A stretch of 64,000 nucleotides of DNA, taken from the IMG/VR virus record IMGVR_UViG_3300037467_000561. One strand, 5' to 3'. Each line of letters begins with the position of its first letter. Position 1 is the first letter of the stretch. The notes beneath the pieces are model-generated. The model saw only the letters and a list, made by a program, of their open reading frames with translations. It did no database searches and was not told the origin of the DNA. The stretch comes from a virus. Positions 7,362 to 48,880 of the stretch are shown here, one piece after another. The position numbers were made by a program, and so were the translations under genes.

Positions 7362-7559
7362 ATGTCGTACGCACCACCAGAGATAGTTTGGGAAAAACCT
7401 GATCTGCACAACGACAAATGGCGGTGGGCTATTTGTCAACCTGATGCTCACTGGGGAGAATGGAAAAGCGGAAGTCACTGGAACAAAGAACAAGCTATGA
7501 AAGATGCCACAGCGGCGTTGGCTGAGATTGATTACAAGCTATCTAGAGGTCTAATTTGA
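7362..7559 (+). CDS. hypothetical protein (65 aa)
   Basis: AGGAGGAAG RBS. Confidence 0.55.
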   Translation: MSYAPPEIVWEKPDLHNDKWRWAICQPDAHWGEWKSGSHWNKEQAMKDATAALAEIDYKLSRGLI

Positions 7560-8077
7560 ACTCCACATCCATCAGCCTTCTTAACGGAGGGTATTTCGAC
7601 TACGAAGCCCCTGAGCGTAGCCGATATAGCATCGAAGACATTGCTCGTGGCTTATCCCACACAGCGCGCTTCTCAGGGCAGACACAGCGTGTTTACACTG
7701 TTGCGCAGCATAGCGTCATTGTCAGCAAAGTAGTTCCAGAAGAACACGCCTTGGCGGGGTTGCTTCACGATGCTACTGAGGCATTCATGGCTGACATCCC
7801 CAGCCCACTTAAAAAGCTTCTTCCTGGGTATGTAGAGCTAGAAAAGCGGGCAGAGGCAGACCTGTGCAGACGTTTCAATGTAAAGTTCCCCTTTCACCCT
7901 TGTATTAAAGAGGCGGATATCAGTGTGTTTGTAGCTGAGCGCAGGGAGATGCAACCTTGTGTACCTATTGGGGAAGAGTATAAGAATGTTGTCCCGTACA
8001 ACAAAAATATAATTGCATGGGACAGCCACATGAGCTATATTTACTTTATGCGTCGTTTTAAGGAGCTTACGAAATGA
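7556..8077 (+). CDS. HD-domain phosphohydrolase
   Basis: 173 aa. AQHS...LLHDATEAFMADIPSPLK gives the H...HD...D metal-binding pattern. TTG start overlapping the upstream TGA. Confidence 0.75.
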   Translation: MNSTSISLLNGGYFDYEAPERSRYSIEDIARGLSHTARFSGQTQRVYTVAQHSVIVSKVVPEEHALAGLLHDATEAFMADIPSPLKKLLPGYVELEKRAEADLCRRFNVKFPFHPCIKEADISVFVAERREMQPCVPIGEEYKNVVPYNKNIIAWDSHMSYIYFMRRFKELTK

Positions 8078-10130: not shown

Positions 10131-10159
10131 ACTCTCATAACCAATAATGAGAGGTGATT

Positions 10160-10378
10160 ATGGCAAACAAACAAAAATTTAGTGTCGAAGAGGCTATCCA
10201 GCTTCGTAGGCAAGGACACTCGCACCAAAGTATCGCGGATATGATGGGGTGCAGTGTCCATTGGTGTTTGAAGAACCTGAAAGGTGTGGAGAAGGGTGCA
10301 GGCGTAGAAAACGATGCTACGAAGCGCATGGCTATCGCTATTCTTGAAGAAGCTCTTGAGAAAGTGAGGGCACTGTGA
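10160..10378 (+). CDS. small HTH protein (72 aa)
   Basis: ATG 10160 after GAGAGGTG. FSVEEAIQLRRQGHSHQSIADMMGCSVHWCLKNL looks like a resolvase-type HTH. Confidence 0.6.
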   Translation: MANKQKFSVEEAIQLRRQGHSHQSIADMMGCSVHWCLKNLKGVEKGAGVENDATKRMAIAILEEALEKVRAL

Positions 10379-11514
10379 CTGATATTTATGTAGGATATCT
10401 AGCGACGAGCAACAACTTCGGCAGGTACAAAATCGGGAAGATGGATGGTGATCATGCCTGGATAGTCTTTGAAGATACAGGTAACGTAGAGCACCCTTCA
10501 ATCAAGACAATCATAGCAAATGGAGTTGTAGATTACAAAAGTCCGAAGTACTCCCTAAAGTTGAATGGTCTATACAACACGAATAACTACGGGCAAGTTA
10601 AAGTAATAAAGATCACAAACTCCAAAGAGGTTACTGTCGAATTTGTAAACACAGGTAATCGTGTTGTTGTTCAAAAGAGTGCAATCCTTGCAGGTTATAT
10701 AACTGATAAACTTGCTATAGCCATGCAGGAGCAGAAAAATTCTGAACTGCGTGCAGAAGAAAAACGTATTATAGCTGAGACAAGACGGGCAGAGAAAGCT
10801 GCCATTGAGGAATCTAATAGGCTTGTGAAAGAGGCAGCAAAGGCGGAACGAGAAGCAGCTAGAGCCGCAATCAAGTCTGTGCAAAGAACTCTTGATTCAA
10901 AAGGTGAGGTGTTCATCGGAACAGTTCACAAAGACTTGCTTGACATGGAATTTAAGGTTGTTGACAGAGTAGATGGAACAAGTCAATGGGTTGTCAAGTA
11001 TCTTGAATCTGGAAACGAATACAACTATTCAGAAAATTTAATTAGAAAGAAATCCGTGGGTGATAAGAAACGGGAGGACTACTTCGTTCTTAAAGCAAAG
11101 TATGATAAAGCTAGAGCAGCAAAGTGGTATCAAGAGAATCGAGAACATGCAATTAAGCGCGCGTGTGAATATCAAAAGTTAAATTTAGATAGGGCAAGAG
11201 TTAACAATCAGAACCGTCGTGCTCGGCGCAATGGAGCAGAAGGAAATCATACTCTTGAGGAAACAAACAGATTATTAGATGAACAAGGACATAAATGTAA
11301 TTGTTGCGGCATCGCCTTGACAGCATCCAATAAACATCTCGATCATATCTACCCTCTGGCTCTTGGCGGTACTAACTACATCTGGAATCTTCAATGGTTG
11401 TGTCAGTTTTGCAATAATAGTAAATCCGCCACTCACCCTGATGAATGGGAAATCTATAGTAAATCAGAGCAATTCCAGAGTGTCTTGAAGGCTCATGGAC
11501 AGCAGCTTCAATAG
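10375..11514 (+). CDS. HNH homing endonuclease
   Basis: 379 aa, GTG start overlapping TGA. Two N-terminal repeats (NTNNYGQVKVIKITNSKEVTVEFVNTGN) homologous to those of 1564-2805. Lys/Glu/Ala coiled coil. C-terminal HNH: CNCCG...HLDHIYPLALGGTNYIWNLQWLCQFCNNSK. Confidence 0.85.
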   Translation: MTDIYVGYLATSNNFGRYKIGKMDGDHAWIVFEDTGNVEHPSIKTIIANGVVDYKSPKYSLKLNGLYNTNNYGQVKVIKITNSKEVTVEFVNTGNRVVVQKSAILAGYITDKLAIAMQEQKNSELRAEEKRIIAETRRAEKAAIEESNRLVKEAAKAEREAARAAIKSVQRTLDSKGEVFIGTVHKDLLDMEFKVVDRVDGTSQWVVKYLESGNEYNYSENLIRKKSVGDKKREDYFVLKAKYDKARAAKWYQENREHAIKRACEYQKLNLDRARVNNQNRRARRNGAEGNHTLEETNRLLDEQGHKCNCCGIALTASNKHLDHIYPLALGGTNYIWNLQWLCQFCNNSKSATHPDEWEIYSKSEQFQSVLKAHGQQLQ

Positions 11515-11533
11515 ACATATTGTGCTTCGTATG

Positions 11534-11585
11534 TAGGCGACTTTGCAAGAGAATTTTCTAAAATTTTAAAATTTGAAGTCGCCTA
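11534..11585. repeat. 10-bp perfect inverted repeat with AT-only tandem repeat in the loop
   Basis: TAGGCGACTT (11534-43) and AAGTCGCCTA (11576-85). The 32-nt loop contains TAAAATTT twice in tandem (11559-74). Confidence 0.8.
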
Positions 11586-11871
11586 TCAGTCACACACTCC
11601 CATCTACTTGTTGTAAATATATCAACAATATCTCTTTTGACCGATTTTAATTTTTCGGTAGGTTTCTTAATAGGTCAACCCTTCCCTCTTAAATCGAGAC
11701 ACCCTTGTCTCCGTGGTCTAACAGTGCCCGCTGGAGGGTCGCTGGGCGGGGTCTACTACCAGAAATATGGCGAAACAGGGGCTCTAAAAAGCCATTGTTC
11801 AAGAGTCGTTTATAAGATGCCCTCTTTTCGGGCCGATTAGGGTACACCGGAAGTCACAATTCAGGCGCACC

Positions 11872-12095
11872 GATCACGTCTCTCTAGACCAGTCCCCATC
11901 CCCACGTCGCACAATAGCCCTCCCAGGCGCTACACAGACCCTCTGCGCCACGTTCTAGCCACCTCTGTTGCGCACCATAGGCGCGCGGTAGCCTCGTCCC
12001 ATCTCGCCACAACCCACCCTCTGTAGCCGCTGTCCTGCTGCTGACAGATGACATCTCACGCCCCTAGCACGTCGATCTGTGCATGGCTGCTGCAA
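11872..12095 (+). repeat. C-rich element, copy 1 (ORF-free, G-poor on + strand)
   Basis: Collinear blocks shared with rc of 27154-27316: GATCA..TCTAG..TCCCCA (11872-11900), CACGTTCTA (11949-57), CCCACCCTCT (12013-22), CCTGCTGC (12034-41), GGCTGC(TGC)AA (12085-95). Confidence 0.6.
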
Positions 12096-12236
12096 CGAAT
12101 GAACATTTGAATACTTGTTCACATGTTGAATAAATGTTATGTCAGGCTACCTGATAGGCCTCATTGATGACCAAGGGTCAGAGAATTTGGCTCGTGAACG
12201 AGTTTTTGTTAGGCACAGGAGACATTAACAATAGCC

Positions 12237-12301
12237 TGTGGATAACAATGTGGATAACTTGGGGGATAAGTAGGCTGCTGTAAGAGCCTTGCTGTGGATA
12301 A
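12237..12301 (-). promoter_or_regulatory. cluster of DnaA boxes (three perfect TTATCCACA plus one TTATCCCCC)
   Basis: TGTGGATAA at 12237-45, 12249-57 and 12293-301. GGGGGATAA at 12261-69. All in the same orientation, with an AT-rich stretch at 12100-12145 to the left. Confidence 0.7.
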
Positions 12302-12316
12302 CTTTATAGCGTCTCA

Positions 12317-12344
12317 CAAAAGAAAAAGCCCTCCGAAGAGGGCC
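12317..12344 (-). terminator. intrinsic terminator of the minus-strand early operon
   Basis: rc reads GGCCCTC-ttcg-GAGGGC then TTTTTCTTTTG, 22 nt after the stop of 12366-12605. Confidence 0.75.
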
Positions 12345-12365
12345 ATTCTGTGCTGCTTTCTAGTC

Positions 12366-12605
12366 TTACTTTGCCAGTTCATCCAACACCGACTGCTTGA
12401 TCGACTCTGCTGCACGCTTCTTGTTGTGGTCTACCACGTACGCTTTACCTACCAGCTTCCACACACCGTCAATCATAGCTTCCTTACGGATGATGTTGCC
12501 TTTGGATTCCACTGCACGAACTTTGGTACCTTCGTTGTAGGTGATTTCATAGGCCATTTCGCCGTTGGTGGAGTACTTAGCAACGTTGGTGATGGTGACG
12601 GTCAT
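12366..12605 (-). CDS. hypothetical protein (79 aa)
   Basis: AGGAG RBS. Last gene before the terminator. Confidence 0.6.
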   Translation of the reverse strand: MTVTITNVAKYSTNGEMAYEITYNEGTKVRAVESKGNIIRKEAMIDGVWKLVGKAYVVDHNKKRAAESIKQSVLDELAK

Positions 12606-12714
12606 GTTAGGCTCCTAGTGTGTGGGTTTTGTGCTGCTGATGTGTTTATAATAGCACAGCCACTAAGAAACACAAGCCCAATAAGCACATTATTTAGAGC
12701 CTTCCCTCTAATCC

Positions 12715-13002
12715 CTACACCAACCCGTTCTCCACACAACACGCTTTCCATGCATCTTCTTGTGTTTCAAACAATCCGTCACATTGCTTACGATCAGCAC
12801 TTATCCACAACCATTTTCTAATGTTTGTAGGAGTTCTTTGATACATGATGTCAAACCCAGCTTCCCGAGCAATGGTTTCATAAGATGAAACAGTTGCTTC
12901 ATAGCTCTTAACAGCATGTGCCGGAGCCTTCTCGTACCAGTCAATTACGTCTCTATCGCATTGAGCGCAACAGATGTTTGATTCTCCGTGTTTGCAAGTC
13001 AT
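12715..13002 (-). CDS. hypothetical Cys-rich protein (95 aa)
   Basis: ATG 13002 after GGAGGAG. MTCKHGESNICCAQC... Confidence 0.55.
   Translation of the reverse strand: MTCKHGESNICCAQCDRDVIDWYEKAPAHAVKSYEATVSSYETIAREAGFDIMYQRTPTNIRKWLWISADRKQCDGLFETQEDAWKACCVENGLV
12801..12809 (+). promoter_or_regulatory. perfect DnaA box TTATCCACA (opposite orientation to the 12237 cluster)
   Basis: Exact 9-mer, inside the coding sequence of 12715-13002. Confidence 0.45.
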
Positions 13003-13004
13003 AA

Positions 13005-13187
13005 TCACTCCTCCTTAACAAGCCCCTCAACACACCCCTTAAGCCTCTCCCAAGCATCCGTCTCGCATTTCTTCATAGCACTAGACACATGCCCTGTATT
13101 CTCGAAAGCCACTTCATTGATAGCATGCCATGAAGCGTAGCTGTTAGCAAGCAAGAGGATTTCTTTAGATTGTTCTTTTGTTAGCAT
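13005..13187 (-). CDS. hypothetical protein (60 aa)
   Basis: ATG 13187 (MLTKEQSKE...) after GAAGGAA. The track start at 13205 is TTG and overlaps the upstream gene. Confidence 0.5.
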   Translation of the reverse strand: MLTKEQSKEILLLANSYASWHAINEVAFENTGHVSSAMKKCETDAWERLKGCVEGLVKEE

Positions 13188-16025: not shown

Positions 16026-16190
16026 CAAGAATCTGTAAGAATTTTAGTGTATGTTGTAAATAAGTCATAATCTTGCTTCTTTTCTTGTATCTTTAGTTGT
16101 TTATTGTTTGTGTGCTAGGTGTTAGTGGTTGTTTGTGCCACCTAACCGCGTTAGCTAGGTTAGTTATGCTCTTTATCTCTTAAAGTTATG

Positions 16191-16219
16191 TTGACACAAA
16201 GCATGTCTCAGTGTACTAT
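16191..16219 (+). promoter_or_regulatory. sigma70-type promoter TTGACA-17-TACTAT
   Basis: TTGACAcaaagcatgtctcagtgTACTAT. Drives the 16250-17647 cassette. Confidence 0.6.
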
Positions 16220-16249
16220 ACAAGAGTAACCAATCACTGAGGAACTTTT

Positions 16250-16432
16250 ATGAAGCGTAAGAATTTTAACTACCGTACCGCAACTGTAGCACAGATTGTG
16301 GATCAGTTCAACAAGTCTAGTCCTCAAGCCATCTATGCTGTTCGGAAGACTTGGGAAGATGACGAGGAGATGTCGGCCAAGGTCGAGACAGCTTACCGTG
16401 AGTACAAGATTGCTAAGTTGTTTGATGAGTGA
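16250..16432 (+). CDS. small HTH-like protein (60 aa), related to 18751 and 21224
   Basis: NFNYRTATVAQIVDQFNKSSPQAIYAVRK aligns with SFDYQTASVDAIAVRLNQVQEQSYYRL. Confidence 0.55.
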   Translation: MKRKNFNYRTATVAQIVDQFNKSSPQAIYAVRKTWEDDEEMSAKVETAYREYKIAKLFDE

Positions 16433-16471: not shown

Positions 16472-16480
16472 TGTGGATAA
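16472..16480 (-). promoter_or_regulatory. perfect DnaA box (TGTGGATAA on + strand)
   Basis: Exact 9-mer with the same flanks (cTGTGGATAAc) as the boxes at 12237 and 12293. Ends 3 nt before ATG 16484. Confidence 0.4.
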
Positions 16481-16483
16481 CTC

Positions 16484-17068
16484 ATGACTAAACGCAAGCC
16501 TAGCAAGTTCATTCGTACAGTGATGCGCCTAGAAGACGGACAGTACGTGACAGCACGCATACACAAAGAGACAGGGGAGATTAAGCCGTTCACGTACAGG
16601 ACCAAGCCTAAGCCACCTGTGCCGACGTTTAAAGAGACTCCTACGGGCCTTCCACCGTTTTGGGTAGGCATGCCTATAGCTGGTGAAGGGCAGGGGCGTA
16701 CAGGCACAATTGAGTCGTCTAAAGCCATTGAGAACCCATTCTTTGGGATGCTCGATCCCTACGACGTTTACGAGATTCGTAACGGTGGGGTAGGCCGCAT
16801 GGTTAGTGCAGATGACGAACTAGACGAAGATGGGCTTGACGATGCAATCGCCACACTTGCAGACAACATGCCGTTCCTTGATAACTATTTCTTCGGTATT
16901 GCCAATCTTGGGGAAAGCAACCCACTGAGCAAGAATGTTATGTTTCACCTGTTGCGATCCTTGCCAGAAATTAGCAGCAACACAATCTATCAGGCTACAA
17001 GCTACAGCCCGAACTATTGCCAAAGGTTGGCGACAGCTTTGCGCGTGTTTATTAAACTTACTACATGA
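16484..17068 (+). CDS. hypothetical protein (194 aa)
   Basis: Long ORF, no obvious SD, no recognisable motif. Confidence 0.5.
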   Translation: MTKRKPSKFIRTVMRLEDGQYVTARIHKETGEIKPFTYRTKPKPPVPTFKETPTGLPPFWVGMPIAGEGQGRTGTIESSKAIENPFFGMLDPYDVYEIRNGGVGRMVSADDELDEDGLDDAIATLADNMPFLDNYFFGIANLGESNPLSKNVMFHLLRSLPEISSNTIYQATSYSPNYCQRLATALRVFIKLTT

Positions 17069-18652: not shown

Positions 18653-18681
18653 TTGACAATATTTAGTCATCATTGTATAAT
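18653..18681 (+). promoter_or_regulatory. perfect sigma70 promoter TTGACA-17-TATAAT
   Basis: TTGACAatatttagtcatcattgTATAAT. Confidence 0.75.
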
Positions 18682-18692
18682 AATGTTATCCG

Positions 18693-18709
18693 CGTAGTGC
18701 AATGCTACG
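18693..18709 (+). promoter_or_regulatory. conserved leader hairpin (copy 1)
   Basis: CGTAG-tgcaatg-CTACG followed by TTTT. The block TGTTATCyGCGTAGTGCAATGCTACGTTTT is identical, except at one C/T position (y), to 21155-21184. Confidence 0.6.
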
Positions 18710-18750
18710 TTTTATTCTGTACACATCCCCCACAATTACAAGGAACACCT

Positions 18751-18960
18751 ATGTCACGCTCGTTTGACTATCAAACCGCGTCTGTTGACGCTATTGCTGT
18801 GCGCCTGAATCAAGTTCAAGAGCAAAGCTATTACCGACTGATTACATACTACACCAAAAAGAATGATAGTGCAATGCTTTCTAAACTGGCGCAAGCGAAA
18901 AAGCTATCTAAGATTTTCAAATTGCAGGCTGAATATATCCTAGAGTACGAGGTGAAGTAA
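18751..18960 (+). CDS. small HTH-like protein (69 aa), paralog of 21224-21433
   Basis: ATG 18751 after AAGGAA. MSRSFDYQTASVDAIAVRLNQVQEQSYYRLITYY... is about 80% identical by eye to the 21224 product. Confidence 0.65.
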   Translation: MSRSFDYQTASVDAIAVRLNQVQEQSYYRLITYYTKKNDSAMLSKLAQAKKLSKIFKLQAEYILEYEVK

Positions 18961-19412
18961 TGCGTAACAAAAACAGAGAAATACTCCTGCGAACCTACGG
19001 TAAACTCTACAGCCGTTTAGAAAACTGTAGCTTAGATGAATGCTGGTATTGCAACGATATACGACAAGCGCTAGACCATTGCCCTCCTCTAAAACATATT
19101 GATGGACTTAACATCGATAAATTTGTTAAGGGCGGAGGTAAACTCCATCTTATTCCGTCTTGCATGGAGTGTAATGGCATCCTGGGCGATAAGCCTATAT
19201 TCTACCCTGAAGAACGTCTAGCATATTTGTATGAAAAGTACATGTCCAAGGTTGATAAATTCTTTAGCGACTGGAGCGAAGAGGAAATAGCAGAACTTGG
19301 ACCACTACTTAGGCGCAGCGTGTTAGCGAAACAGAAACAAGTTAACATGTGGGTTGAAAAAGCAAGGAATATTGAGACAAACATACTTAAGTTAGACTCT
19401 GAAAACCTTTAA
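18960..19412 (+). CDS. HNH-like Zn-finger endonuclease (150 aa)
   Basis: TAATG coupling. CWYCNDIRQALDHCPPLKH ... CMECNGILGDK (CxxC...H...CxxC). Confidence 0.6.
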   Translation: MRNKNREILLRTYGKLYSRLENCSLDECWYCNDIRQALDHCPPLKHIDGLNIDKFVKGGGKLHLIPSCMECNGILGDKPIFYPEERLAYLYEKYMSKVDKFFSDWSEEEIAELGPLLRRSVLAKQKQVNMWVEKARNIETNILKLDSENL

Positions 19413-21123: not shown

Positions 21124-21152
21124 TTGACAATCTGTGCAATAAGATGTATAAT
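21124..21152 (+). promoter_or_regulatory. perfect sigma70 promoter TTGACA-17-TATAAT
   Basis: TTGACAatctgtgcaataagatgTATAAT. Confidence 0.75.
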
Positions 21153-21163
21153 TGTGTTATCTG

Positions 21164-21180
21164 CGTAGTGCAATGCTACG
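21164..21180 (+). promoter_or_regulatory. conserved leader hairpin (copy 2)
   Basis: CGTAG-tgcaatg-CTACG then TTTT, at the same distance from the -10 as copy 1. Confidence 0.6.
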
Positions 21181-21223
21181 TTTTGTAAATCTGCTGTCAA
21201 AAATCCCACCTAAAGGAATAAAA

Positions 21224-21433
21224 ATGTCTCGTTCGTTCGACTACCAGTCGGCGTCCGTCGATGCTATCGCCGTTCGCCTCAACACCGTGCAAGAGCAAGC
21301 GTACTATCGTCTTGTCACATATTACAACAAGAAAAACGACGAATCAATGCTTGCAAAACTGGCGCAAGCTAAGAAGCTTTCTAAAATTTTTAAGTTGCAA
21401 GCTGAGTATGCAAGGGAATACTGTGATGCGTGA
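21224..21433 (+). CDS. small HTH-like protein (69 aa), paralog of 18751-18960
   Basis: ATG 21224. MSRSFDYQSASVDAIAVRLNTVQEQAYYRLVTYY... Confidence 0.65.
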   Translation: MSRSFDYQSASVDAIAVRLNTVQEQAYYRLVTYYNKKNDESMLAKLAQAKKLSKIFKLQAEYAREYCDA

Positions 21434-22436
21434 GCTAAAAATAACAAGAGAGGAAGTAGAAGAAAGGATAAACAACAAAGAACCGCTGAAGTTCATACAA
21501 TGGGAAGGCGAATACTCAGGAACAAGGAAGTCAGTGGCAAAAGTAGTCTGCACGCGACACAACACCGAATTTCTATTGCGCGTAACTATGTTAACTGGAC
21601 GCACTAAGGATTTCTGCCCAGCATGTAAGAGGGATAAATTGGGCTCTAACAGTAGAATGCCTGATAGTGAGATTACATCAAAGTTCGCCGCTACTGGAGG
21701 GTTTGCCGAAGGTACTTTATTTACGAGGAGTGCGAGAGTAACACGAGGAAAGCGGCTACATTGGAACGTGTTTTGCCCAAAATGTGCTACTGACGAGTAC
21801 GCCAATGCCGGACTTTGTACGGGGTGGTTTGAGGCAGAGGTGCAATCTTTGAGGGACGGAAACCCGCCGTGCCGGTGCAGTAGCACAGCTATCAACCTAA
21901 GTCCCGCACAGTGGGATTACCGCGTGACGAAGCATCTAGAAAACAGAGAAACGGGCCTTTCTTTTGTGAGGATTGAAAAAGGCCGAACATGGACAAGAAG
22001 CAAGTTAATCGTATCTTGTAAAGAGCATGGTACTTTCGATACAAAAGTGTTCAGCGTCCTATTTATGGGGCAAGGCTGTCCATCCTGTGCAAAAACGGGG
22101 TTTGACCGAAATAAGGCGTCGCACATCTACGTACTAAAAATTGAAGGTATCCATAAGTCATTTACAGGGTATGGAATATCAAATAACCTGAAGCAAAGAA
22201 TGGCGCACCATAGAAGAACCTTAAATAAGCTGGGTCTAACGATAACAGATAGTTTCGCGCTGGCTACGAGTGGAGATGCGGCATACTTAGCGGAGTGTCA
22301 ACTAAAAGAGAAATTCCCCGTAGTTAATCAGGGAATTTCTGGATTTATGAAGGAAGCCACACTGTTTGAAAACTTCCCTATTGCTGTTGAATTTGTTAAA
22401 TCATTCTCCGAAGTAGAACTGTCGGCAGTAGGTTAA
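21426..22436 (+). CDS. free-standing homing endonuclease, T5orf172 / GIY-YIG-like
   Basis: ATG 21426 overlaps the stop of the small ORF. Zn-ribbons (CPACK, CPKC, GQGCPSCAKTGFD). C-terminus SHIYVLKIEG..FTGYGISNNLKQRMAHH is related to 1564-2805. Confidence 0.75.
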   Translation: MRELKITREEVEERINNKEPLKFIQWEGEYSGTRKSVAKVVCTRHNTEFLLRVTMLTGRTKDFCPACKRDKLGSNSRMPDSEITSKFAATGGFAEGTLFTRSARVTRGKRLHWNVFCPKCATDEYANAGLCTGWFEAEVQSLRDGNPPCRCSSTAINLSPAQWDYRVTKHLENRETGLSFVRIEKGRTWTRSKLIVSCKEHGTFDTKVFSVLFMGQGCPSCAKTGFDRNKASHIYVLKIEGIHKSFTGYGISNNLKQRMAHHRRTLNKLGLTITDSFALATSGDAAYLAECQLKEKFPVVNQGISGFMKEATLFENFPIAVEFVKSFSEVELSAVG

Positions 22437-26575: not shown

Positions 26576-26701
26576 GATGTTGCTCCTATATAGTGTTTGC
26601 GTGTATTTAGTTAAGTAGCACTACTTACGTAGCGCATGTCATTTGTGCTTTGTCAGTCTCGACAGTCTTGTTGCCGTTCTGTCTTGTCCGTCGATAGATG
26701 C

Positions 26702-26730
26702 ATAATAACGCTATGGATTGTGCATGTCAA
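26702..26730 (-). promoter_or_regulatory. sigma70-type promoter TTGACA-17-TATTAT
   Basis: rc reads TTGACAtgcacaatccatagcgtTATTAT. Leader of about 120 nt to ATG 26575. Confidence 0.6.
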
Positions 26731-26791
26731 CAGAAATTTTCATATACCCCTAGATTTACGTTCAAAATCGTGGTAGCGATAGATTCTCACA

Positions 26792-27091
26792 TCACCTTGT
26801 GGCAACGCTGTATGCATAAACAGCACTCTTGTAGGCCATGTCTGACGCAAGTTTCGACTTTTTCGGCTTCAGTGTGAGAATCTTTGAGAATTTCACACGA
26901 AAAGTCTTTACATCAACGGTTTTGCGGAGTAACTTGATTGTAATTCTTGCGCTATCTATCTTCTGTACGGTGTTTAACGCTTCCGCATAAGAAGCATCCC
27001 TATCAGAATTGATAGGGTGTGCCCTGTAGGGTGAGAGTAGGATGAACACTAGAGATAGTTTTTGAACCGTGTAACGCACGGGTAGGGCCAT
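26792..27091 (-). CDS. doubtful ORF (99 aa), no RBS
   Basis: The only ORF of 60 aa or more in the 776-nt gap. No SD, basic composition. The region may be non-coding. Confidence 0.2.
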   Translation of the reverse strand: MALPVRYTVQKLSLVFILLSPYRAHPINSDRDASYAEALNTVQKIDSARITIKLLRKTVDVKTFRVKFSKILTLKPKKSKLASDMAYKSAVYAYSVATR

Positions 27092-27153
27092 CTATCGTCT
27101 TTTGAAAAGTAACCGCTAAGGATTAGTGGGAAGGGCACTCTTACGCCCAAAAT

Positions 27154-27316
27154 TTGCAGCCCTGGAGGCAGCAGGGGCGAGGTGCATCTAGAGGGTGGGT
27201 GGAAATGTATAGAAGGGCACGTTTCTTAGAACGTGTTTTGCGGAGGAAGACGGGTAGGAAACGGAAGAGAGTGCCTAAGATTGGGGAACCCTAGACACCC
27301 CCTCGTTGATCCCAAG
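27154..27316 (-). repeat. C-rich element, copy 2 (C-rich on minus strand), including 18-bp repeat copy 2
   Basis: Minus-strand order: CTTGGGATCAACGAGGGG (27316-27299), TCTAG..TTCCCCA, CACGTTCTA (27235-27), CCCACCCTCT (27199-90), CCTGCTGC (27175-68), GGCTGCAA (27161-54). Same order as in copy 1. Confidence 0.6.
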
Positions 27317-27351
27317 GGTGCATGATGGCTGGACCAACACCCAATTTATCG

Positions 27352-33705: not shown

Positions 33706-35478
33706 TTGTCTGAAATTGCTGAGAAGTATGGTATTGATCTGACTCGCGACCATAAGACTGGCTGTCCCAGGTGCATCCGCGAAGGGCGAGATAGCAGCCG
33801 TAACAATCTACATGTTTATGGAAATACAGAGTCAGCGTTTTGTTTTGCGTGCTCTTGGACGATCCCAAGTAAAGAGCACCGCGAAGCTATGGGATGGGTT
33901 GAAACAGAAGAGGAGGAAGAATTGAGCACTAAGGAAAAGCTCACGCAGGCTGAGATTGATCTTTTTAAAAGTTACACAGGAGAGTCCGGCAAGGGTGCAC
34001 GGGGTATTAGTGACAACACGTACAAGCACTATGCTGTGCGTACAAAGTATGACACTGAGACAGGTGAACCTGACACGCAATACTATCCTTATTTTGAGGA
34101 CGGCTCTCTGGCAGGTCTGAAGTTGCGGAAGCTCCCGAAGTCATTCAGTGTACAAGGGCGGGTTAATGCTAATTCTGAGTTGTTCGGGTATTTCCGGTAT
34201 AAGAATAGCAATTCCAAGATTATCTGCCTCTGCGCCGGGGAGATCGATACTATGTCTCTCAGGGATGCATTGGTCAACTATGCCAAGAATAAAGGTAGCG
34301 ATTGGGAGGAAACGCCAGTTGTGGGGTTAGGGCTTGGCGAAAGCGGTAGCAACAAAATGGTCGCCGCTCATTATGATTGGTTCGACCGTGCAGATAAAAT
34401 TATTTACTTTGCAGACCAAGATGAACCCGGTCAAGATGCTATTCCTGGCATCGTCAAAGCTCTGCCACATGGCAAAGTCTTTATTGCTAAGTTCAATGCT
34501 AAGGATGTTAATGAGCTTTTGATGAAAGGTCGCGAGAAGGAAATCATCAATGCCTTCTTCTCTGCATCTAAATACGTCCCTCCTGGCCTCGTTGGCAGCA
34601 GTCAGATGTACGACAAGATTGTTGAGGCCGCGAAGGCTCCGAAAGTACCATTCCCACCATTTATGCGGGAATTGAACGACATGACAGGTGGTGGCATGGA
34701 CCTGAAGACGGCTGTGGCAATCTCTGCATCTACTGGCTTGGCGAAAAGTACGCTGATTAATGCCGCTGTTTATTTCTGGCTTTTCAACAGCACCTATAAG
34801 ATTGGTGCCATTTCTATGGAGCAGTCTGCTGCACAGTATGGTGAGCTTATGCTTTCAACTCACTGTGGCCGTAAGATCGGTAAGATGCTACCAGAAGAGA
34901 AGCTGGAGTACCTGATGAGTGAGTATGTTCAGACGAAGCAGCGAGAGCTATTCTACAACGAGGATGGTTCCGACCGTTGGGTTGTTCTCGATGAGCGCGA
35001 CAACTCTTTGGAAGCTATGAAGGCTAAAATTCTTGAGCTTATTGTGGCTTGTGGTTGTCAGATTTTGGTGCTGGATACACTGTCGGACATGTTGGACGCA
35101 ACCACCGTGGAAGAACAACAGGACTTCACCAAGTGGATGAAGCAGATTCTCAACAAGTACGACGTGTTGATCCTGTTGATTTGCCATCAGCGCAAGGCAG
35201 CGAGTGGGCAGAAAGACGGCAGTAAAGGTGCGATGGGGTCTGAATCGGATATTCAAGGTTCCTCGACAATCGTAAAAAGTGTGGCGCTAAATCTTATGCT
35301 GTCCCGCGATAAGCTTGCTGAAGATGTGCTGACACGCAATACCACGATTGTCGCTTTGACCAAGAACCGCACAGGTTCGGAAACTTCCAACGAAGCTTGC
35401 AAAATTTACTACGACGCTGAGACTCACAGTTTACATTCACTGCAAGATTGGTTGGAGAAGAACCCTAACCAGTTCTAA
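33706..35478 (+). CDS. bifunctional DNA primase / DnaB-family helicase (T7 gp4-like)
   Basis: 590 aa, TTG start 8 nt after GGAGG. Zn finger CPRC...CFAC. TOPRIM-like CAGEIDTMS...FADQDEPGQDA. Helicase Walker A SASTGLAKST and Walker B ILVLDTLSD. Confidence 0.85.
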   Translation: MSEIAEKYGIDLTRDHKTGCPRCIREGRDSSRNNLHVYGNTESAFCFACSWTIPSKEHREAMGWVETEEEEELSTKEKLTQAEIDLFKSYTGESGKGARGISDNTYKHYAVRTKYDTETGEPDTQYYPYFEDGSLAGLKLRKLPKSFSVQGRVNANSELFGYFRYKNSNSKIICLCAGEIDTMSLRDALVNYAKNKGSDWEETPVVGLGLGESGSNKMVAAHYDWFDRADKIIYFADQDEPGQDAIPGIVKALPHGKVFIAKFNAKDVNELLMKGREKEIINAFFSASKYVPPGLVGSSQMYDKIVEAAKAPKVPFPPFMRELNDMTGGGMDLKTAVAISASTGLAKSTLINAAVYFWLFNSTYKIGAISMEQSAAQYGELMLSTHCGRKIGKMLPEEKLEYLMSEYVQTKQRELFYNEDGSDRWVVLDERDNSLEAMKAKILELIVACGCQILVLDTLSDMLDATTVEEQQDFTKWMKQILNKYDVLILLICHQRKAASGQKDGSKGAMGSESDIQGSSTIVKSVALNLMLSRDKLAEDVLTRNTTIVALTKNRTGSETSNEACKIYYDAETHSLHSLQDWLEKNPNQF

Positions 35479-39224: not shown

Positions 39225-41165
39225 GTGGGGATTTATGCAGCAGATATAGAAACTACTGGATTGCTGGAGCAAATGCAGAAGCAGGCCAACCCGAAGCTGC
39301 ACAACTTCTGTGCTATTGATATCGATACGCCCCACACGATTCTTTTTGAGGGGCATCAGCGTAGTGATTTGCAGGAATTTCTGAATCAAGGCCACACCCT
39401 TGTTATGCATAATGGCAAGTTGTTCGACATGGAAGCTCTTAAGCTTCTTGGTTATGATGTGTCTCGTGTGAATCTTATCGACACTCTTGCGCTAAGCTGG
39501 TATCTTGAGCCGAACAGGATGAAGCACGGCTTGGCAGAGTATGGCGAAGAGTTTGGCGTACCTAAACCTGCTATCGAGGATTGGGAGAATCAAACACAAG
39601 AGGAATACAATCATCGCGTGCAGGAAGATTGCAAGATTCAGAAGAAGTTGTGGCAGAGGCAAGTCGCAAAGCTAAATGTGTTGTACGGCACTGGACCTGA
39701 TGCACATAAGAAGATTATTGCGTATCTGATGCAGAAGATGGAAGAGTTTCGCCAGCAACAGCAAAATCGCTGGAAGCTTGATGTAGAAGGTGCGATTGCA
39801 CTTCAAGCAGAGCTTGAGAAGGCCATTGAGGAGAAGACTGAGGCATTGCGTCAAGTTATGCCGAAGGTGCCGGAGTATGTTGTGCGCAAGCGACCGTCAG
39901 CACCGTTTAAAAAGAACGGCGATTTGTCCGAGGCTGGTAAGCGTTGGAAGGAAGTGACTGAAGAAGCAGGTCTTCCGTTTGAGCACACAGGCGACATTAA
40001 AGTGGTGAAGGAGTGGAAAGAGGGGAACCCGGCGTCGCATATTCAGATAAAAGCGTGGCTCGACAGTCTAAACTGGATTCCCGAAACCTTCAAGTTTGTC
40101 CGTGGTGAAAATGGTGAGCCAGATCGCAATATCCCGCAGATTAATCTGAAGGGTGGCGACATCTGCCAGTCAGTGAAGGATTTGATTCCAAAGTGTGAAG
40201 GTATTGAGCACATTGCAGGGTTGGGAATCCTCAATCACAGGTTGGGTGTTGTGAAAGGATTCTTGCGGGATCACATAGATGGGGAGCTTACGGCCCGTAT
40301 GCAAGGTTTCACCAACACTTTGCGCTGCCAACACCGTGAAATCGTGAATTTGCCGAGTTTACGAGTAAAGTATGGTGAACAACTTCGCGGGTTGTTGATG
40401 GCGCGGCCGGGTATGAAACTGCTTGGCTCGGATGAATCGTCGCTGGAGGACCGCCTCAAACACCATTTCCAATGGAAGCTTGATCCTGAGTACGTCAAGT
40501 CTCAGATGACGAAAGGTTTTGACCCACACAACACCATTGCAGTGATTGCAGGGCTGATGACGCAAGCTGATGCTGATTGGTACTCGCAGTACAAAGCGTT
40601 GCCAAAGGCCGAGCATACGGAAGATGGCGATAAGAAGTTTGAGAGGATTGATGCCATTCGTGCTGTTGGTAAAAGTACTAACTATGCGTGTCAGTACGGG
40701 GCAGGAGTTGCGACAATTGCTCGTACAGCTAAGGTGAGCACAGCAGTGGCGAAGAAGTTGCACGCCGCATACCACAAAATGAACTGGTCAATCGCTAAGA
40801 TCGCTAGTATGATGGTTGTCAAGAAAACTGATTTTGGAGACTGGCAGCTTAACCCCATCAACAAAATGTGGTACTCGCTCCGTTCGGACAAGGACAGATT
40901 TTCTACACTGATTCAAGGTACAGGGGCTTATACACTTGATCTGTGGCTTTATCATTGCGAGCGTCTTGCAAAACAAAGGGGATTGCGTTGGAAGCTGTTG
41001 GGTCAAATGCACGACGAACTGATAGCAGAGGTGCCAGAAGGTGAGGAAGAAGTTTATCGCCAACTTGTTTCTGATGCCATGAGAAAACTGAACGATCAAC
41101 TTAAGCTTAATAGAGAGCTTGCGTGCGATATTAATTTTGGAGATAGGTATAGTGACATCCACTGA
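39225..41165 (+). CDS. family A DNA polymerase with 3'-5' exonuclease domain
   Basis: 646 aa, GTG start after GGGAGG. Exo I ADIETTG. Motif A LLGSDESSLEDRL, motif B RAVGKSTNYACQYGAG, motif C QMHDELI. Confidence 0.9.
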   Translation: MGIYAADIETTGLLEQMQKQANPKLHNFCAIDIDTPHTILFEGHQRSDLQEFLNQGHTLVMHNGKLFDMEALKLLGYDVSRVNLIDTLALSWYLEPNRMKHGLAEYGEEFGVPKPAIEDWENQTQEEYNHRVQEDCKIQKKLWQRQVAKLNVLYGTGPDAHKKIIAYLMQKMEEFRQQQQNRWKLDVEGAIALQAELEKAIEEKTEALRQVMPKVPEYVVRKRPSAPFKKNGDLSEAGKRWKEVTEEAGLPFEHTGDIKVVKEWKEGNPASHIQIKAWLDSLNWIPETFKFVRGENGEPDRNIPQINLKGGDICQSVKDLIPKCEGIEHIAGLGILNHRLGVVKGFLRDHIDGELTARMQGFTNTLRCQHREIVNLPSLRVKYGEQLRGLLMARPGMKLLGSDESSLEDRLKHHFQWKLDPEYVKSQMTKGFDPHNTIAVIAGLMTQADADWYSQYKALPKAEHTEDGDKKFERIDAIRAVGKSTNYACQYGAGVATIARTAKVSTAVAKKLHAAYHKMNWSIAKIASMMVVKKTDFGDWQLNPINKMWYSLRSDKDRFSTLIQGTGAYTLDLWLYHCERLAKQRGLRWKLLGQMHDELIAEVPEGEEEVYRQLVSDAMRKLNDQLKLNRELACDINFGDRYSDIH

Positions 41166-47757: not shown

Positions 47758-47933
47758 GCCATATTGCAACTGTAGAAACTAATAAGCTTCTTGAGGAAGT
47801 GTTGTACGAGCTTCGGGAAATTCGCAAAGCACTTGAGGTCAGCGTTGAAGTACAAAATAAGATTTCCGCTACCTGTTCAGATTCGGCGAATATTGATTTT
47901 TATGAAATCCTCAAGCATAAGGAAATTCGATGA
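47754..47933 (+). CDS. hypothetical protein (59 aa), below the track cutoff
   Basis: ATGA coupled at both ends. Confidence 0.45.
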   Translation: MSHIATVETNKLLEEVLYELREIRKALEVSVEVQNKISATCSDSANIDFYEILKHKEIR

Positions 47934-48880
47934 ATATTGCTGATAAAGACTGGTGCGTTGAAGCTGTCAAGATGGCTAACGAAAATCCTGAAATGTCGTG
48001 GCGTGAAATCTCTCGCCGGATTGGTGTTGCGAAGTCCACCGTGTCCGACAACCTCCGCAAATACTTCAAGTTCCGTGAAACTGAAGTGGAAGCTGTAGAA
48101 GGAACTGTACCTAAAGGTGCTAAGATTCTTCTGCTGGATATCGAATGCGCTCCCACCACTGCGTACGTATGGGGTCGTTGGGATAACAATGTTAGCCAGA
48201 AGCAAGTGGTGCACGAGGGTTATCTGCTGACGTATTCTGCAAAGTGGCTTGGAGAACCTACCATTGTGTCGAATCGAATCTACGAAGCGCGGAACGATGA
48301 AGTGTTGGTGCGAGAGCTTGCAGACCTGATGAGCCAAGCGGACCTGTGTGTGGCTCATAACGCTCAAAAGTTCGACATTCCACTTATCAAGACTCGCATG
48401 GTTGCTCTTGGCATGACCCCACCGGCACCTAGCAAGATTGTGGATACGCTTCGGATTGCAAAGGCTGAGTTCCGCTTCCCGAGCAACAGTCTTGACAGCA
48501 TTGCGGCGTACTTGGGATTGCAACGTAAAGCAAGCCACAGCGGCTTTGAACTGTGGACTCGCTGCATGGCGATGGATGACGAAGCATTCGAGGAGATGCT
48601 TGAATACAACATTCAGGACGTTGTGGTGCTGGAAGAAGTGTATATGCGGCTGCGCCATTGGAGCAAGACACACCCCAACGTTGCTTTGTACGAGCCTGCT
48701 GGCAAGCTTCGTTGTGTATGCTGTGGCAGTGAGAAGCTGGCTGATATTGACAAGAAATATTACACTGCAACGTCGGAGTTTATGCTGTATAATTGCCTTT
48801 CTTGTGGGAAGCAGAATCGGGGACGTAAGAATGTCTCTGAGCACAAGATTGATAACAGTCTTGCGAATGTGGGGAAATAA
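47930..48880 (+). CDS. HTH + DEDD-type 3'-5' exonuclease (RNase H fold) + C-terminal Zn-ribbon protein
   Basis: GVAKSTVSDNLRKY. ILLLDIECAP (Exo I), VAHNAQKFDIPLI, YNIQDVVVLEEVY. CVCCG...CLSCG. Confidence 0.65.
   Translation: MNIADKDWCVEAVKMANENPEMSWREISRRIGVAKSTVSDNLRKYFKFRETEVEAVEGTVPKGAKILLLDIECAPTTAYVWGRWDNNVSQKQVVHEGYLLTYSAKWLGEPTIVSNRIYEARNDEVLVRELADLMSQADLCVAHNAQKFDIPLIKTRMVALGMTPPAPSKIVDTLRIAKAEFRFPSNSLDSIAAYLGLQRKASHSGFELWTRCMAMDDEAFEEMLEYNIQDVVVLEEVYMRLRHWSKTHPNVALYEPAGKLRCVCCGSEKLADIDKKYYTATSEFMLYNCLSCGKQNRGRKNVSEHKIDNSLANVGK

What the first reader, a model, noticed from the sequence alone, without database searches (positions are those of the whole stretch)
12100..12809. Cluster of perfect DnaA boxes next to an AT-rich stretch: candidate DnaA-dependent phage origin
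- The exact consensus 9-mer TTATCCACA occurs five times in the window. On the minus strand it is at 12237-45, 12249-57, 12293-301 and 16472-80; on the plus strand it is at 12801-09.
- A near-box, GGGGGATAA, lies at 12261-69.
- Roughly 0.5 occurrences of a given 9-mer are expected on both strands of 64 kb.
- Four of the five lie within 570 bp, in the only large convergent non-coding gap.
- That gap is flanked by an AT-rich segment with small inverted repeats (12100-12145, gaacatttgaatacttgttcacatgttgaataaatgtt).
- The phage encodes its own primase-helicase, polymerase and SSB, but no recognisable initiator is visible. Recruiting host DnaA is therefore a plausible initiation route.
Basis: partly seen in the sequence, partly recalled or inferred. 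Interest (0 to 1): 0.7.

Follow-up and report, generated by a model that had tools for sequence, protein, structure and literature searches.

The report
Host DnaA-box array, probably not origin
A virulent phage carries a real, far-beyond-chance cluster of perfect binding sites for the host replication initiator DnaA, but its close relatives lack the sites, so it is probably an optional DnaA-capturing element like the one known in T5-type phages, not the phage's replication origin.

Summary
TTATCCACA occurs five times (0.47 expected). Three perfect boxes and one near-box, all in one orientation and mostly in 12-bp phase, lie at 12237-12301 in the largest non-coding gap (11515-12365).

The origin reading is poorly supported:
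- Six related phages keep the gap, the neighbouring 79-aa gene and the AT-rich inverted-repeat element (12090-12140). None has the boxes, including one whose neighbouring proteins are 95-96% identical.
- No DNA-unwinding element adjoins the boxes, and there are no iterons, no IHF site and no initiator gene.
- The cumulative GC-skew minimum is near 27 kb. The cluster sits at a local maximum.
- The phage has a T7-type primase-helicase and polymerase.

By comparison with Pseudomonas phage K8, the gap occupies the position of the terminal repeat.

Pairs of DnaA boxes 3 bp apart in untranslated, end-proximal DNA are already described for T5-like phages, where they are not at the origin. I found the same arrangement in other virulent phages.

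Best reading: a recently gained, accessory array that captures host DnaA (sink or anchor). A DnaA-assisted origin remains a minority possibility (about 0.15). It is a new variant of a known kind, of moderate interest.

The parts
12237..12245 (-). Perfect DnaA box 1 (TGTGGATAA on the + strand, followed by CAA)
12249..12257 (-). Perfect DnaA box 2, 3 bp from box 1. The 12-mer TGTGGATAACTT is identical to the one at 12293.
12261..12269 (-). Near-box GGGGGATAA (2 mismatches), 3 bp from box 2 and in the same orientation
12293..12301 (-). Perfect DnaA box 4, same orientation, 44 bp start-to-start after box 2
12223..12234 (+). Run resembling DnaA-trios (read 3'->5' on the + strand: GAT AAC AAT TAC), 2 bp from box 1 on the side where oriC-type origins unwind
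   Evidence: Chance of any run of >=4 NAN trios is about 0.044, and about 0.001 with GAT first. Found post hoc; motif definition.
12317..12344 (-). Intrinsic terminator of the 79-aa gene (GGCCCTCTTCGGAGGGCT followed by a T-run). Relatives keep a terminator here with different stem sequences.
12189..12214 (+). Weak hairpin with a T-run on the + strand. It lies between the conserved element and the boxes and is poorly conserved as a hairpin in relatives.
12090..12140 (.). AT-rich inverted/direct-repeat element (GCAACGAATGAACATTTGAATACTTGTTCACATGTTGAATAAATGT). It is nearly invariant in four phages, three of which lack the boxes.
12157..12180 (.). Diverged copy of the motif CCCTCGTTGATGCCCAAGGTT, which is conserved in relatives' gaps and repeated at window 27300-27319
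11700..12100 (.). C-rich, high-GC (0.53-0.66) non-coding segment, partly conserved in relatives. No Rfam match and no excess RNA folding stability.
11552..11651 (.). Most AT-rich 100 bp of the whole window (GC 0.28), beside the hairpin 11534-11543/11576-11585
12366..12605 (-). 79-aa ORF that always borders the gap in relatives. Its Pakpunavirus K8 homologue is the second-last gene before the right terminal repeat.
12801..12809 (+). Perfect DnaA box in the opposite orientation, inside the ORF 12715-13008(-). With its flank it forms a 24-nt, 75% inverted repeat with 12222-12245.
16472..16480 (-). Perfect DnaA box (TGTGGATAACTC) 3 bp upstream of the ATG at 16484, about 270 bp downstream of a strong sigma70-like promoter

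Best explanation
The cluster is an accessory, recently gained array of high-affinity binding sites for the host initiator DnaA. It sits in a pocket at the end of the 79-aa gene's transcription unit, inside the terminus-proximal untranslated region of a virulent phage of about 90 kb.

Proposed mechanism:
- Host DnaA binds the two or three tandem boxes (3-bp spacers, one orientation) and the fourth box as a head-to-tail oligomer.
- The complex does not fire replication. It captures DnaA.
- One possibility is that it acts as a sink. As phage genomes amplify, the sites would outnumber the roughly 200 DnaA monomers per origin and starve the host oriC.
- The other possibility is that it acts as a cis-acting protein-DNA anchor at the genome end, as proposed for the DnaA-box pairs of the T5 injection-stop region.

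Status of each step:
- Shown: the sites, their phasing and orientation, their absence from relatives, and the existence of the same architecture in T5-like and other virulent phages.
- Inferred: that DnaA binds in vivo, that the gap holds the genome terminus, and what the phage gains.
For: 1. The enrichment is real and extends beyond the cluster. There are 5 perfect boxes against 0.47 expected. Nine of the 15 relaxed boxes lie in the 4.3 kb to the right of the gap. This argues for selection for DnaA binding in general, not for a single origin site.
2. All four cluster boxes share one orientation with 3-bp spacers. This is the head-to-tail geometry used by the oriC half-sites and by datA. Boxes of the R1-R4 type (TTAT with C at the fifth position) are the strongest binders.
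3. The boxes are absent from six relatives that keep the gap, the 79-aa gene, the terminator and the AT-rich element. One of these relatives has 95-96% identical PhoH and ClpP-like proteins. The array is therefore dispensable for replication in this phage family.
4. There is a precedent. [quoted passage not shown] Gostya9 shows CTGTGGATAACATTGTGGATAACTT, a 25/26 match to window 12235-12260.
5. The same pairs occur in 266 GenBank phage records. Most are T5-like terminal repeats. Others are T7-like Berlinvirus A7 at the record start, Vibrio phage River4 and Microbacterium phage Squash. They also occur in more than 120 IMG/VR contigs, where I estimate 1-2 by chance from the collection's size.
6. 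In the related Pakpunavirus K8, the 79-aa homologue is the second-last gene before the annotated 1189-bp terminal repeat, and genes converge on the repeat from both sides. The window's gap has the same topology.
7. Titration is quantitatively plausible. There are about 200 DnaA monomers per origin, and plasmids carrying DnaA boxes at about 10 copies already shift initiation.
8. An HD-domain deoxyribonucleoside 5'-monophosphate phosphatase lies 4 kb from the cluster. From my own knowledge, T5's equivalent gene (dmp) is a pre-early gene.
Against: - No binding data exist, and the host is unknown.
- The T5 role is itself only a hypothesis in a preprint.
- T5's arrangement differs. It has eight boxes in two inverted sets with 52-bp spacers, it is conserved in all T5-like phages, and it lies in a divergent gap 4-6 kb from the end.
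- The terminus position here is inferred only from a relative that shares 37% identity in a single protein. No terminal repeat could be shown.
- Four or five sites per genome is a small sink until the copy number is high.
- A run resembling DnaA-trios next to box 1 fits an unwinding module better than a sink.
- An element missing from close relatives may confer little or nothing.
Confidence: 0.45

Rival explanations
1. DnaA-dependent or DnaA-assisted replication origin. DnaA oligomerises on the tandem boxes and opens the DNA to their left, at the trio-like run or the AT-rich element at 12100-12140. The phage primase-helicase then loads on the single strand.
For: - The boxes share one orientation and point toward the AT-rich side. 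From memory, this matches E. coli R1 relative to its unwinding element.
- Two tandem boxes, a 2-bp GC spacer and four NAN trios starting with the consensus GAT match the formal definition of the basal unwinding system.
- The gap contains the most AT-rich 100 bp of the window and a conserved inverted-repeat element.
- No phage initiator was recognised near the gap.
Against: - The boxes are absent in all six relatives that keep the gap, so family replication does not need them.
- The 60 bp next to the trio-like run are not AT-rich and contain a hairpin. The AT-rich element is about 95 bp away and is conserved without boxes.
- There are no iterons, no IHF consensus and no GATC enrichment.
- The cumulative GC-skew minimum is at about 27 kb, and the cluster sits at a local maximum.
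- The replisome is T7-type. From my own knowledge, no such phage is known to use DnaA.
- Equivalent T5 boxes are not at the T5 origins.
- The trio-like run was found post hoc.
Confidence: 0.15
2. No selected function. One chance DnaA-like 12-mer was amplified by slippage or recombination in a fast-evolving non-coding segment, and the other boxes are coincidence.
For: - The 12-mers at 12249 and 12293 are identical, and the one at 12237 is 83% identical.
- The segment between the two hairpins is the most variable part of the gap in relatives.
- The array is missing from a very close relative.
- The exact 33-mer has no donor in 185,579 species genomes.
Against: - Two further perfect boxes with unrelated flanks lie at 12801 and 16472.
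- Relaxed boxes are also enriched in the same 4.3 kb.
- The fourth copy is separated by 23 bp of unrelated sequence, so this is not a simple tandem array. TRF does not call it.
- The same pair-plus-distal-box layout recurs in unrelated virulent phages.
Confidence: 0.15
3. A cis element of genome-end biology or transcription insulation. The repeats would belong to the terminal-repeat or packaging-recognition region, like the short repeat arrays beside T7-type terminal repeats. Alternatively, a DnaA roadblock would stop convergent read-through between the two transcription units.
For: - The gap has the topology of K8's terminal-repeat position.
- Berlinvirus A7 has about nine 12-bp box-like repeats within 150 bp of the record start.
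- The boxes lie exactly between the two convergent hairpins.
Against: - Relatives with the same terminase and the same gap lack the boxes, so packaging cannot depend on them.
- A strong intrinsic terminator is already present.
- No terminal repeat could be demonstrated here.
Confidence: 0.15
4. The sites are recognised by a phage-encoded protein that mimics DnaA's specificity, not by host DnaA.
For: A small HTH protein (10154-10378) lies nearby.
Against: - tblastn with E. coli DnaA domain IV (sequence written from memory) finds nothing in the window (best E 2.1).
- The relative L007/L002 has a homologue of the HTH protein but no boxes.
- The boxes match the host consensus exactly.
Confidence: 0.05

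Closest known systems
DnaA-box pairs in the untranslated injection-stop (iss) region of the terminal repeat of T5-like phages (Davison 2020, bioRxiv 10.1101/866236, which credits a 1987 study with the first report)
   Same: - Virulent phage with its own replisome.
- Consensus boxes in pairs separated by exactly 3 bp, in one orientation, with another box or pair about 45-60 bp further on.
- Located in the largest untranslated region.
- Near-identical pair sequence, 25/26 with Gostya9.
- A dNMP-phosphatase gene lies nearby.
- Not associated with the mapped origin in T5.
   Different: - T5-like phages have eight boxes in two inverted sets with fixed 52-bp spacers, conserved in all 25 genomes compared. 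Here there are four boxes in one orientation and none in relatives.
- T5's region is a divergent gap 4-6 kb inside the terminal repeat. This one is a convergent gap.
- There is no sequence homology outside the boxes.
- The function in T5 is itself unproven.
Bacterial oriC DnaA-oligomerisation region / basal unwinding system (tandem boxes, spacer, DnaA-trios, AT-rich DNA)
   Same: - Tandem consensus boxes no more than 3 bp apart, all in one orientation.
- A short GC spacer and four NAN trios beginning with GAT on the correct side.
   Different: - No AT-rich unwinding DNA directly follows.
- There is no GATC clustering and no IHF site.
- The array is not conserved among relatives.
- The skew extremum is of the wrong sign.
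E. coli datA (DnaA titration / DnaA-ATP hydrolysis locus)
   Same: A small non-coding cluster of boxes in one orientation that captures DnaA without initiating replication.
   Different: datA needs an IHF site between boxes 2 and 3, with tuned spacing. No IHF consensus is present here.
Plasmid and phage-plasmid origins that use DnaA boxes as accessories (P1 oriR, F, pSC101, RK2; from my own knowledge)
   Same: Consensus DnaA boxes lie beside AT-rich DNA on a mobile replicon.
   Different: Those origins have Rep initiator genes and iterons. None is found here, and the phage has a lytic, T7-type replication module.
Ori-Finder style 'origins' reported in phage genome papers (for example PseuGes_254 and phage G)
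   Same: A DnaA-box cluster plus AT-rich DNA in a non-coding region of a large virulent phage, interpreted as an origin.
   Different: Those are purely computational calls without comparative or experimental support. Here the comparative test was done and it fails.

Membership tests
oriC-type / BUS DnaA-dependent origin | Cluster of DnaA boxes in one orientation (head-to-tail) | tested here: met
   Four boxes, all TGTGGATAA-type on the + strand, starting at 12237, 12249, 12261 and 12293
oriC-type / BUS DnaA-dependent origin | At least 3 DnaA-trios (3'-NAN-5', ideally GAT) within 16 bp of a box | tested here: inconclusive
   GAT AAC AAT TAC lies 2 bp from box 1. The chance is 0.044 for any such run and 0.001 with GAT first, but it was found post hoc.
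oriC-type / BUS DnaA-dependent origin | AT-rich unwinding element directly beyond the trios | tested here: not met
   The next ~60 bp have ordinary GC and contain a hairpin (12189-12214). The nearest AT-rich DNA is about 95 bp away and is conserved without boxes.
oriC-type / BUS DnaA-dependent origin | Conserved in related replicons | tested here: not met
   No boxes in the gap of L001, L002, L006, L014, L017 or L018
oriC-type / BUS DnaA-dependent origin | Cumulative GC-skew minimum at the site | tested here: not met
   Local maximum at 11-12 kb and minimum at about 27 kb. In phages the skew largely follows transcription direction, so this is a weak test.
oriC-type / BUS DnaA-dependent origin | DnaA binding, unwinding, and autonomous or infection-dependent replication | not testable with these tools
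   Needs EMSA or footprinting, ChIP, 2D gels or marker frequency
Iteron/Rep origin with accessory DnaA boxes (P1 oriR type) | Adjacent Rep initiator gene and iterons | tested here: not met
   Neighbours are a resolvase, an HTH protein, an HNH endonuclease and small unknown ORFs. There is no tandem array other than a 19-bp, 1.9-copy repeat.
T5-like iss-region DnaA-box pairs | Boxes in pairs separated by 3 bp | tested here: met
   12237/12249, plus the near-box at 12261
T5-like iss-region DnaA-box pairs | Located in a large untranslated region of the terminal repeat | tested here: inconclusive
   It is the largest untranslated region. The terminus position is inferred only from K8 synteny and topology. 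No repeat was demonstrated, and there is no sequence similarity to K8's ends.
T5-like iss-region DnaA-box pairs | Eight boxes in two inverted-repeat sets with 52-bp spacers, conserved across the group | tested here: not met
   One set of four boxes, and only a single inverted box 555 bp away inside an ORF. Absent from relatives.
datA-type DnaA sink | Boxes in one orientation plus an essential IHF site | tested here: not met
   The orientation criterion is met. No WATCAANNNNTTR match with <=1 mismatch occurs in 11500-12400.
DARS-type DnaA reactivating sequence | Head-to-head boxes I and II | tested here: not met
   All cluster boxes are head-to-tail

The most novel reading that the evidence does not exclude
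Tandem DnaA-box pairs placed at or near genome ends may be a widespread, independently evolved device of virulent phages. Examples are T5-like phages, T7-like Berlinvirus, Vibrio Thalassavirus, Microbacterium Squashvirus and this distant relative of the Pakpunavirus/Otagovirus group. The phages would exploit host DnaA for something other than initiation, such as controlling or anchoring entering DNA, or shutting off host initiation. This phage would be a very recent gain. Box-free near-isogenic relatives (the L001 type) would then make the function directly testable.
Probability: 0.25. Interest if true: 0.7.

Novelty: new variant of a known kind. Interest (0 to 1): 0.4.

Why it matters
Several phage genome papers label a DnaA-box cluster beside AT-rich DNA as 'the origin' on computational grounds alone. 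Here the comparative test contradicts that label. The case instead adds an independent lineage to the little-studied DnaA-box pairs in untranslated, end-proximal DNA of virulent phages, known from T5 since 1987 and still unexplained. Close relatives lack the array, so a natural with/without comparison exists. It could show what a lytic phage with its own replisome gains from binding the host initiator.

Tried and rejected
- **Non-coding RNA in the gap.** Rfam gives nothing at gathering or E-value thresholds. Folding z-scores are -0.08 (+ strand) and -1.13 (- strand) for 11690-12215. Rejected.
- **Iterons.** A loose CCCTCTGNNGC motif recurs 3-4 times in the C-rich part here and in relatives, but with irregular spacing. 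TRF finds no array. Not convincing.
- **Bacterial donor of the cluster.** The exact 33-mer is absent from the species-level genome collection.
- **More relatives from metagenome contigs.** The pattern scan returned nothing. That collection evidently lacks the source samples.
- **DNA-level relatives in GenBank phages.** None found by megablast or blastn.
- **Phage-encoded DnaA-like DNA-binding domain.** Not found.
- **Function of the flanking 79-aa protein.** The AlphaFold model is confident (pLDDT 89.5): a five-stranded beta unit followed by a C-terminal helix. It has no significant PDB match (best E 0.23) and only a PHROG family of unknown function.
- **Sequence similarity between the gap and the K8 terminal region.** None.
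- **Using Logan contig ends to locate physical termini.** Four contigs break at 12695-12697, but a 33-bp stretch there is shared with L006, where the neighbouring gene differs. I read this as an assembly branch point and not a genome end.
- **Greedy ORF map for gaps.** Polluted by spurious antisense ORFs, so gaps were read manually.
- **DARS-like and datA-like readings.** Rejected on box orientation and on the absence of an IHF site.
Full report
**Observation**

The consensus DnaA box TTATCCACA occurs five times in the window: 12237-45(-), 12249-57(-), 12293-301(-), 12801-09(+) and 16472-80(-). The expectation is 0.47, and none of 100 dinucleotide-preserving shuffles reaches five. The near-box GGGGGATAA is at 12261-69. 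On the + strand the cluster reads:

CC-TGTGGATAA-caa-TGTGGATAA-ctt-GGGGGATAA-(23 bp)-TGTGGATAA-ctt

All four sites share one orientation. The first three are in exact 12-bp phase, with 3-bp spacers. The 12-mer TGTGGATAACTT occurs twice. Enrichment persists when the consensus is relaxed:
- With one mismatch there are 31 matches against 14.9 expected.
- With TTWTNCACA there are 15 against 7.5 expected, and 9 of the 15 lie in 12.2-16.5 kb.

**Setting**

The gap 11515-12365 lies between the end of an HNH endonuclease gene (10375-11514, +) and the end of a 79-aa ORF (12366-12605, -). It is convergent and is the largest non-coding stretch. A second non-coding stretch of about 780 bp exists at 26576-27351. 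Only three perfect boxes and the near-box are in the gap. The box at 12801 is inside the ORF 12715-13008(-), and the box at 16472 sits 3 bp before the ATG at 16484.

The cluster lies between two hairpins. One is a textbook minus-strand terminator (12344-12317). The other is a weak plus-strand hairpin with a T-run (12189-12214). From left to right the gap contains:
- the most AT-rich 100 bp of the window (11552-11651, GC 0.28);
- a C-rich segment of 53-66% GC (11700-12100);
- the boxes.

**The phage**

The window carries these genes:
- a T7-type primase-helicase (33706-35478);
- DNA polymerase A (39225-41165) and an exonuclease subunit (47930-48880);
- ligase, ribonucleotide reductase and thymidylate synthase;
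- a T4-type large terminase (140-1621, -);
- three tRNAs and several homing-endonuclease-like genes.

It has no DNA-level relative in GenBank phages. At the protein level its nearest cultured relatives are Pseudomonas myoviruses of about 90-100 kb. The primase-helicase is 41% identical to its homologue in the phiPsa374 group, and the 79-aa ORF is 37% identical to its Pakpunavirus homologue. The same phage was assembled at 100% identity in one JGI and four Logan samples.

**The comparative test**

Six related phages keep the 79-aa gene, at the following identities:

| Locus | Identity of the 79-aa gene |
|---|---|
| L001 | 82% |
| L014 | 74% |
| L002/L007 | 70% |
| L017 | 68% |
| L018 | 60% |
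| L006 | gene replaced |

- None of the six has a single consensus or relaxed DnaA box downstream of that gene.
- L001 is a close relative. Its PhoH and ClpP-like proteins are 95-96% identical to the window's.
- In L001, L002 and L006 the gap itself is alignable to the window's.
- In that alignment, element 12090-12140 and the motif at 12157-12180 are the best conserved parts. The terminator is conserved in position.
- The roughly 95 bp between the two hairpins, exactly where the boxes sit, is the most variable part.

The AT-rich element therefore functions independently of the boxes. The boxes are a recent, lineage-specific gain (or a loss elsewhere).

**Other origin criteria**

- The cumulative GC skew has a local maximum at 11-12 kb. 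Its minimum is at about 27 kb, where transcription diverges ahead of the replication genes. Skew in phages mostly tracks transcription, so this is weak evidence, but it does not favour the site.
- There are no iterons, no IHF consensus and no GATC excess.
- There is no Rep-like gene and no phage DnaA-like domain.
- In favour of an origin, the boxes point toward the AT-rich side. Two bp from box 1 lies a run of four NAN trinucleotides starting with the consensus 3'-GAT-5'. Together with the tandem boxes this formally matches the 'basal unwinding system' of bacterial origins.
- The chance of such a run is about 4%, or about 0.1% with GAT first, but I found it post hoc.
- The DNA beyond the run is not AT-rich and contains a hairpin.

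**What the gap may be**

In Pakpunavirus K8, the homologue of the 79-aa ORF is the second-last gene before the annotated 1189-bp right terminal repeat. Genes on the other side of the repeat also point toward it. In a circularised assembly this gives exactly the convergent topology seen here. The gap is therefore the likely position of the genome termini. This is an inference. There is no sequence similarity to K8's ends, and I could not demonstrate a repeat. A non-coding RNA in the gap is not supported.

**Precedent**

- Davison (bioRxiv 10.1101/866236) reports that all T5-like phages carry DnaA boxes 'always in pairs separated by 3 bp' in the large untranslated injection-stop region of the terminal repeat.
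- He notes that T5 origins are near the middle of the genome, so these boxes are unlikely to serve replication.
- He proposes, without experiment, that membrane-bound DnaA holds the entering DNA.
- A 40-nt query from the window's cluster hits 266 GenBank phage records. Most are T5-like, in features annotated as left terminal repeat or first-step-transfer DNA.
- Gostya9 has CTGTGGATAACATTGTGGATAACTT, a 25/26 match to the window. It has two same-orientation pairs 61 bp apart and an inverted set 1.8 kb away.

The same pairs occur in other virulent phages:
- T7-like Berlinvirus A7, with about nine 12-bp box-like repeats within 150 bp of the record start;
- Vibrio phage River4, with a pair plus a third box 60 bp further on, a layout very like the window's;
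- Microbacterium phage Squash, with a pair at 343-368, before gene 1;
- large Lactococcus and Streptomyces phages.

Of the 80 contigs inspected, half have three or more perfect boxes within 600 bp. The window also encodes an HD-type deoxyribonucleoside 5'-monophosphate phosphatase 4 kb from the cluster (7556-8077). From my own knowledge, the equivalent T5 gene (dmp) is a pre-early function.

**Interpretation**

The most economical reading is an accessory array of high-affinity DnaA sites that captures host DnaA without firing replication.
- Consensus boxes of the R1/R4 type are the strongest binders.
- Plasmids with a few boxes at about 10 copies measurably titrate DnaA and delay initiation.
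- There are only about 200 DnaA monomers per origin.
- A replicating phage genome with five perfect boxes would therefore become an effective sink.
- Alternatively, as proposed for T5, the complex acts in cis at the genome end.

I cannot separate these two variants, and neither is shown. I give this non-origin, DnaA-capture reading about 0.45. The rivals are:

| Rival | Confidence |
|---|---|
| DnaA-assisted origin | about 0.15 |
| Neutral by-product of duplication in a fast-evolving segment | about 0.15 |
| Terminus, packaging or roadblock role | about 0.15 |
| Binding by a phage protein | about 0.05 |

**Novelty and score**

DnaA-box clusters are a well-known kind of element, and 3-bp-spaced pairs in untranslated DNA of virulent phages are on record for T5-like phages. 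This is a new variant. It occurs in an unrelated lineage, with a simpler one-orientation layout, and it is not conserved among relatives. Interest is moderate (0.4). The claimed origin is unlikely. The case does sharpen an unresolved question, namely what virulent phages do with host DnaA, and it offers natural box-free relatives for testing.

Noticed in passing
window 12090-12140 (also L001 6455-6505, L006 3480-3530, L002 505-555, approximate): The roughly 50-bp element GCAAYGAATGAACATTTSAATA..TTCACATGTTGAWTAAATGT is nearly invariant in four phages whose surrounding gap is only about 68% identical. It holds TGAACA/TGTTCA and AACATTT/AAATGTT inverted repeats and two TTGAATA direct repeats. It may be a protein-binding, terminus or origin core site that does not depend on the DnaA boxes.
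   Followed up: partly
window 27296-27320 and 26576-27351: A second non-coding region (about 780 bp, G-rich, no Rfam hit) carries ACACCCCCTCGTTGATCCCAAGGGTG. The same motif is conserved in the relatives' gaps next to the AT-rich element, and a diverged copy lies at window 12157-12180. It looks like a repeated cis element of unknown role.
   Followed up: partly
window 7556-8077 (+): An HD-domain protein matches PHROG families annotated as deoxyribonucleoside 5'-monophosphate phosphatase (E 9e-54). From my own knowledge this is the function of T5's pre-early dmp gene, which would hint at T5-like disposal of host nucleotides.
   Followed up: no
window 10154-11514 (+) compared with L001 around 7040: The HTH gene and the HNH endonuclease gene next to the gap are absent in L001 and L006, where the serine recombinase gene directly borders the gap. 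They appear to be a mobile insertion. The recombinase is only 34% identical between the window and L001.
   Followed up: partly
window 18673-18960 and 21152-21433 (+): Two paralogous ORFs of about 95 aa (..SRSFDYQ[TS]ASVDAIAVRLN..KKLSKIFKLQAEY..). Each lies just upstream of, or overlapping, an endonuclease-like or zinc-finger ORF (18960-19412; the CapR-domain ORF 21261-22436). This may be a duplicated mobile cassette.
   Followed up: no
window 50913-53642 (+): The ribonucleotide reductase large subunit is 909 aa. It matches its families in two blocks (about 22-358 and 612-908), leaving about 250 aa unexplained. This could be an intein or an inserted domain.
   Followed up: no
window 16192-16220 (+) and 16472-16480: A near-consensus sigma70 promoter (TTGACA-17 bp-TACTAT) sits in the divergent region 16030-16250. 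The perfect DnaA box TGTGGATAACTC lies 3 bp before the ATG of ORF 16484-17068, overlapping its ribosome-binding region.
   Followed up: no
window 12222-12245 / 12801-12824: A 24-nt, 75% inverted repeat comprises a DnaA box plus the flank ACATTA..N9. The two arms bracket the 79-aa gene. It is reminiscent of the inverted box sets of T5-like phages but may be chance.
   Followed up: no
L140 (Shigella phage VB_Ship_A7, record 1-150); L141 (Vibrio phage River4, record about 590-670); L142 (Microbacterium phage Squash, record 343-368): Arrays or pairs of DnaA(-like) boxes with a 12-bp period lie at or near the record start of unrelated virulent phages, in unannotated DNA. I did not search the paper library for any description of these.
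   Followed up: partly
L003 4580-4760 = L005 4840-5030; L004 6480-6605: IMG/VR 'viral' contigs carry dense box arrays. One is a high-GC element with seven perfect boxes plus TGTGGAAAA repeats. The other has a degenerate box array followed by a (TA)n-rich stretch. Both look like plasmid or chromosomal-type origins.
   Followed up: no
window 12668-12700: A 33-bp stretch upstream of the 79-aa gene is 100% identical in L006, where the neighbouring gene is different. Four Logan contigs break at 12695-12697. It is probably a shared promoter or regulatory module and a recombination junction.
   Followed up: partly
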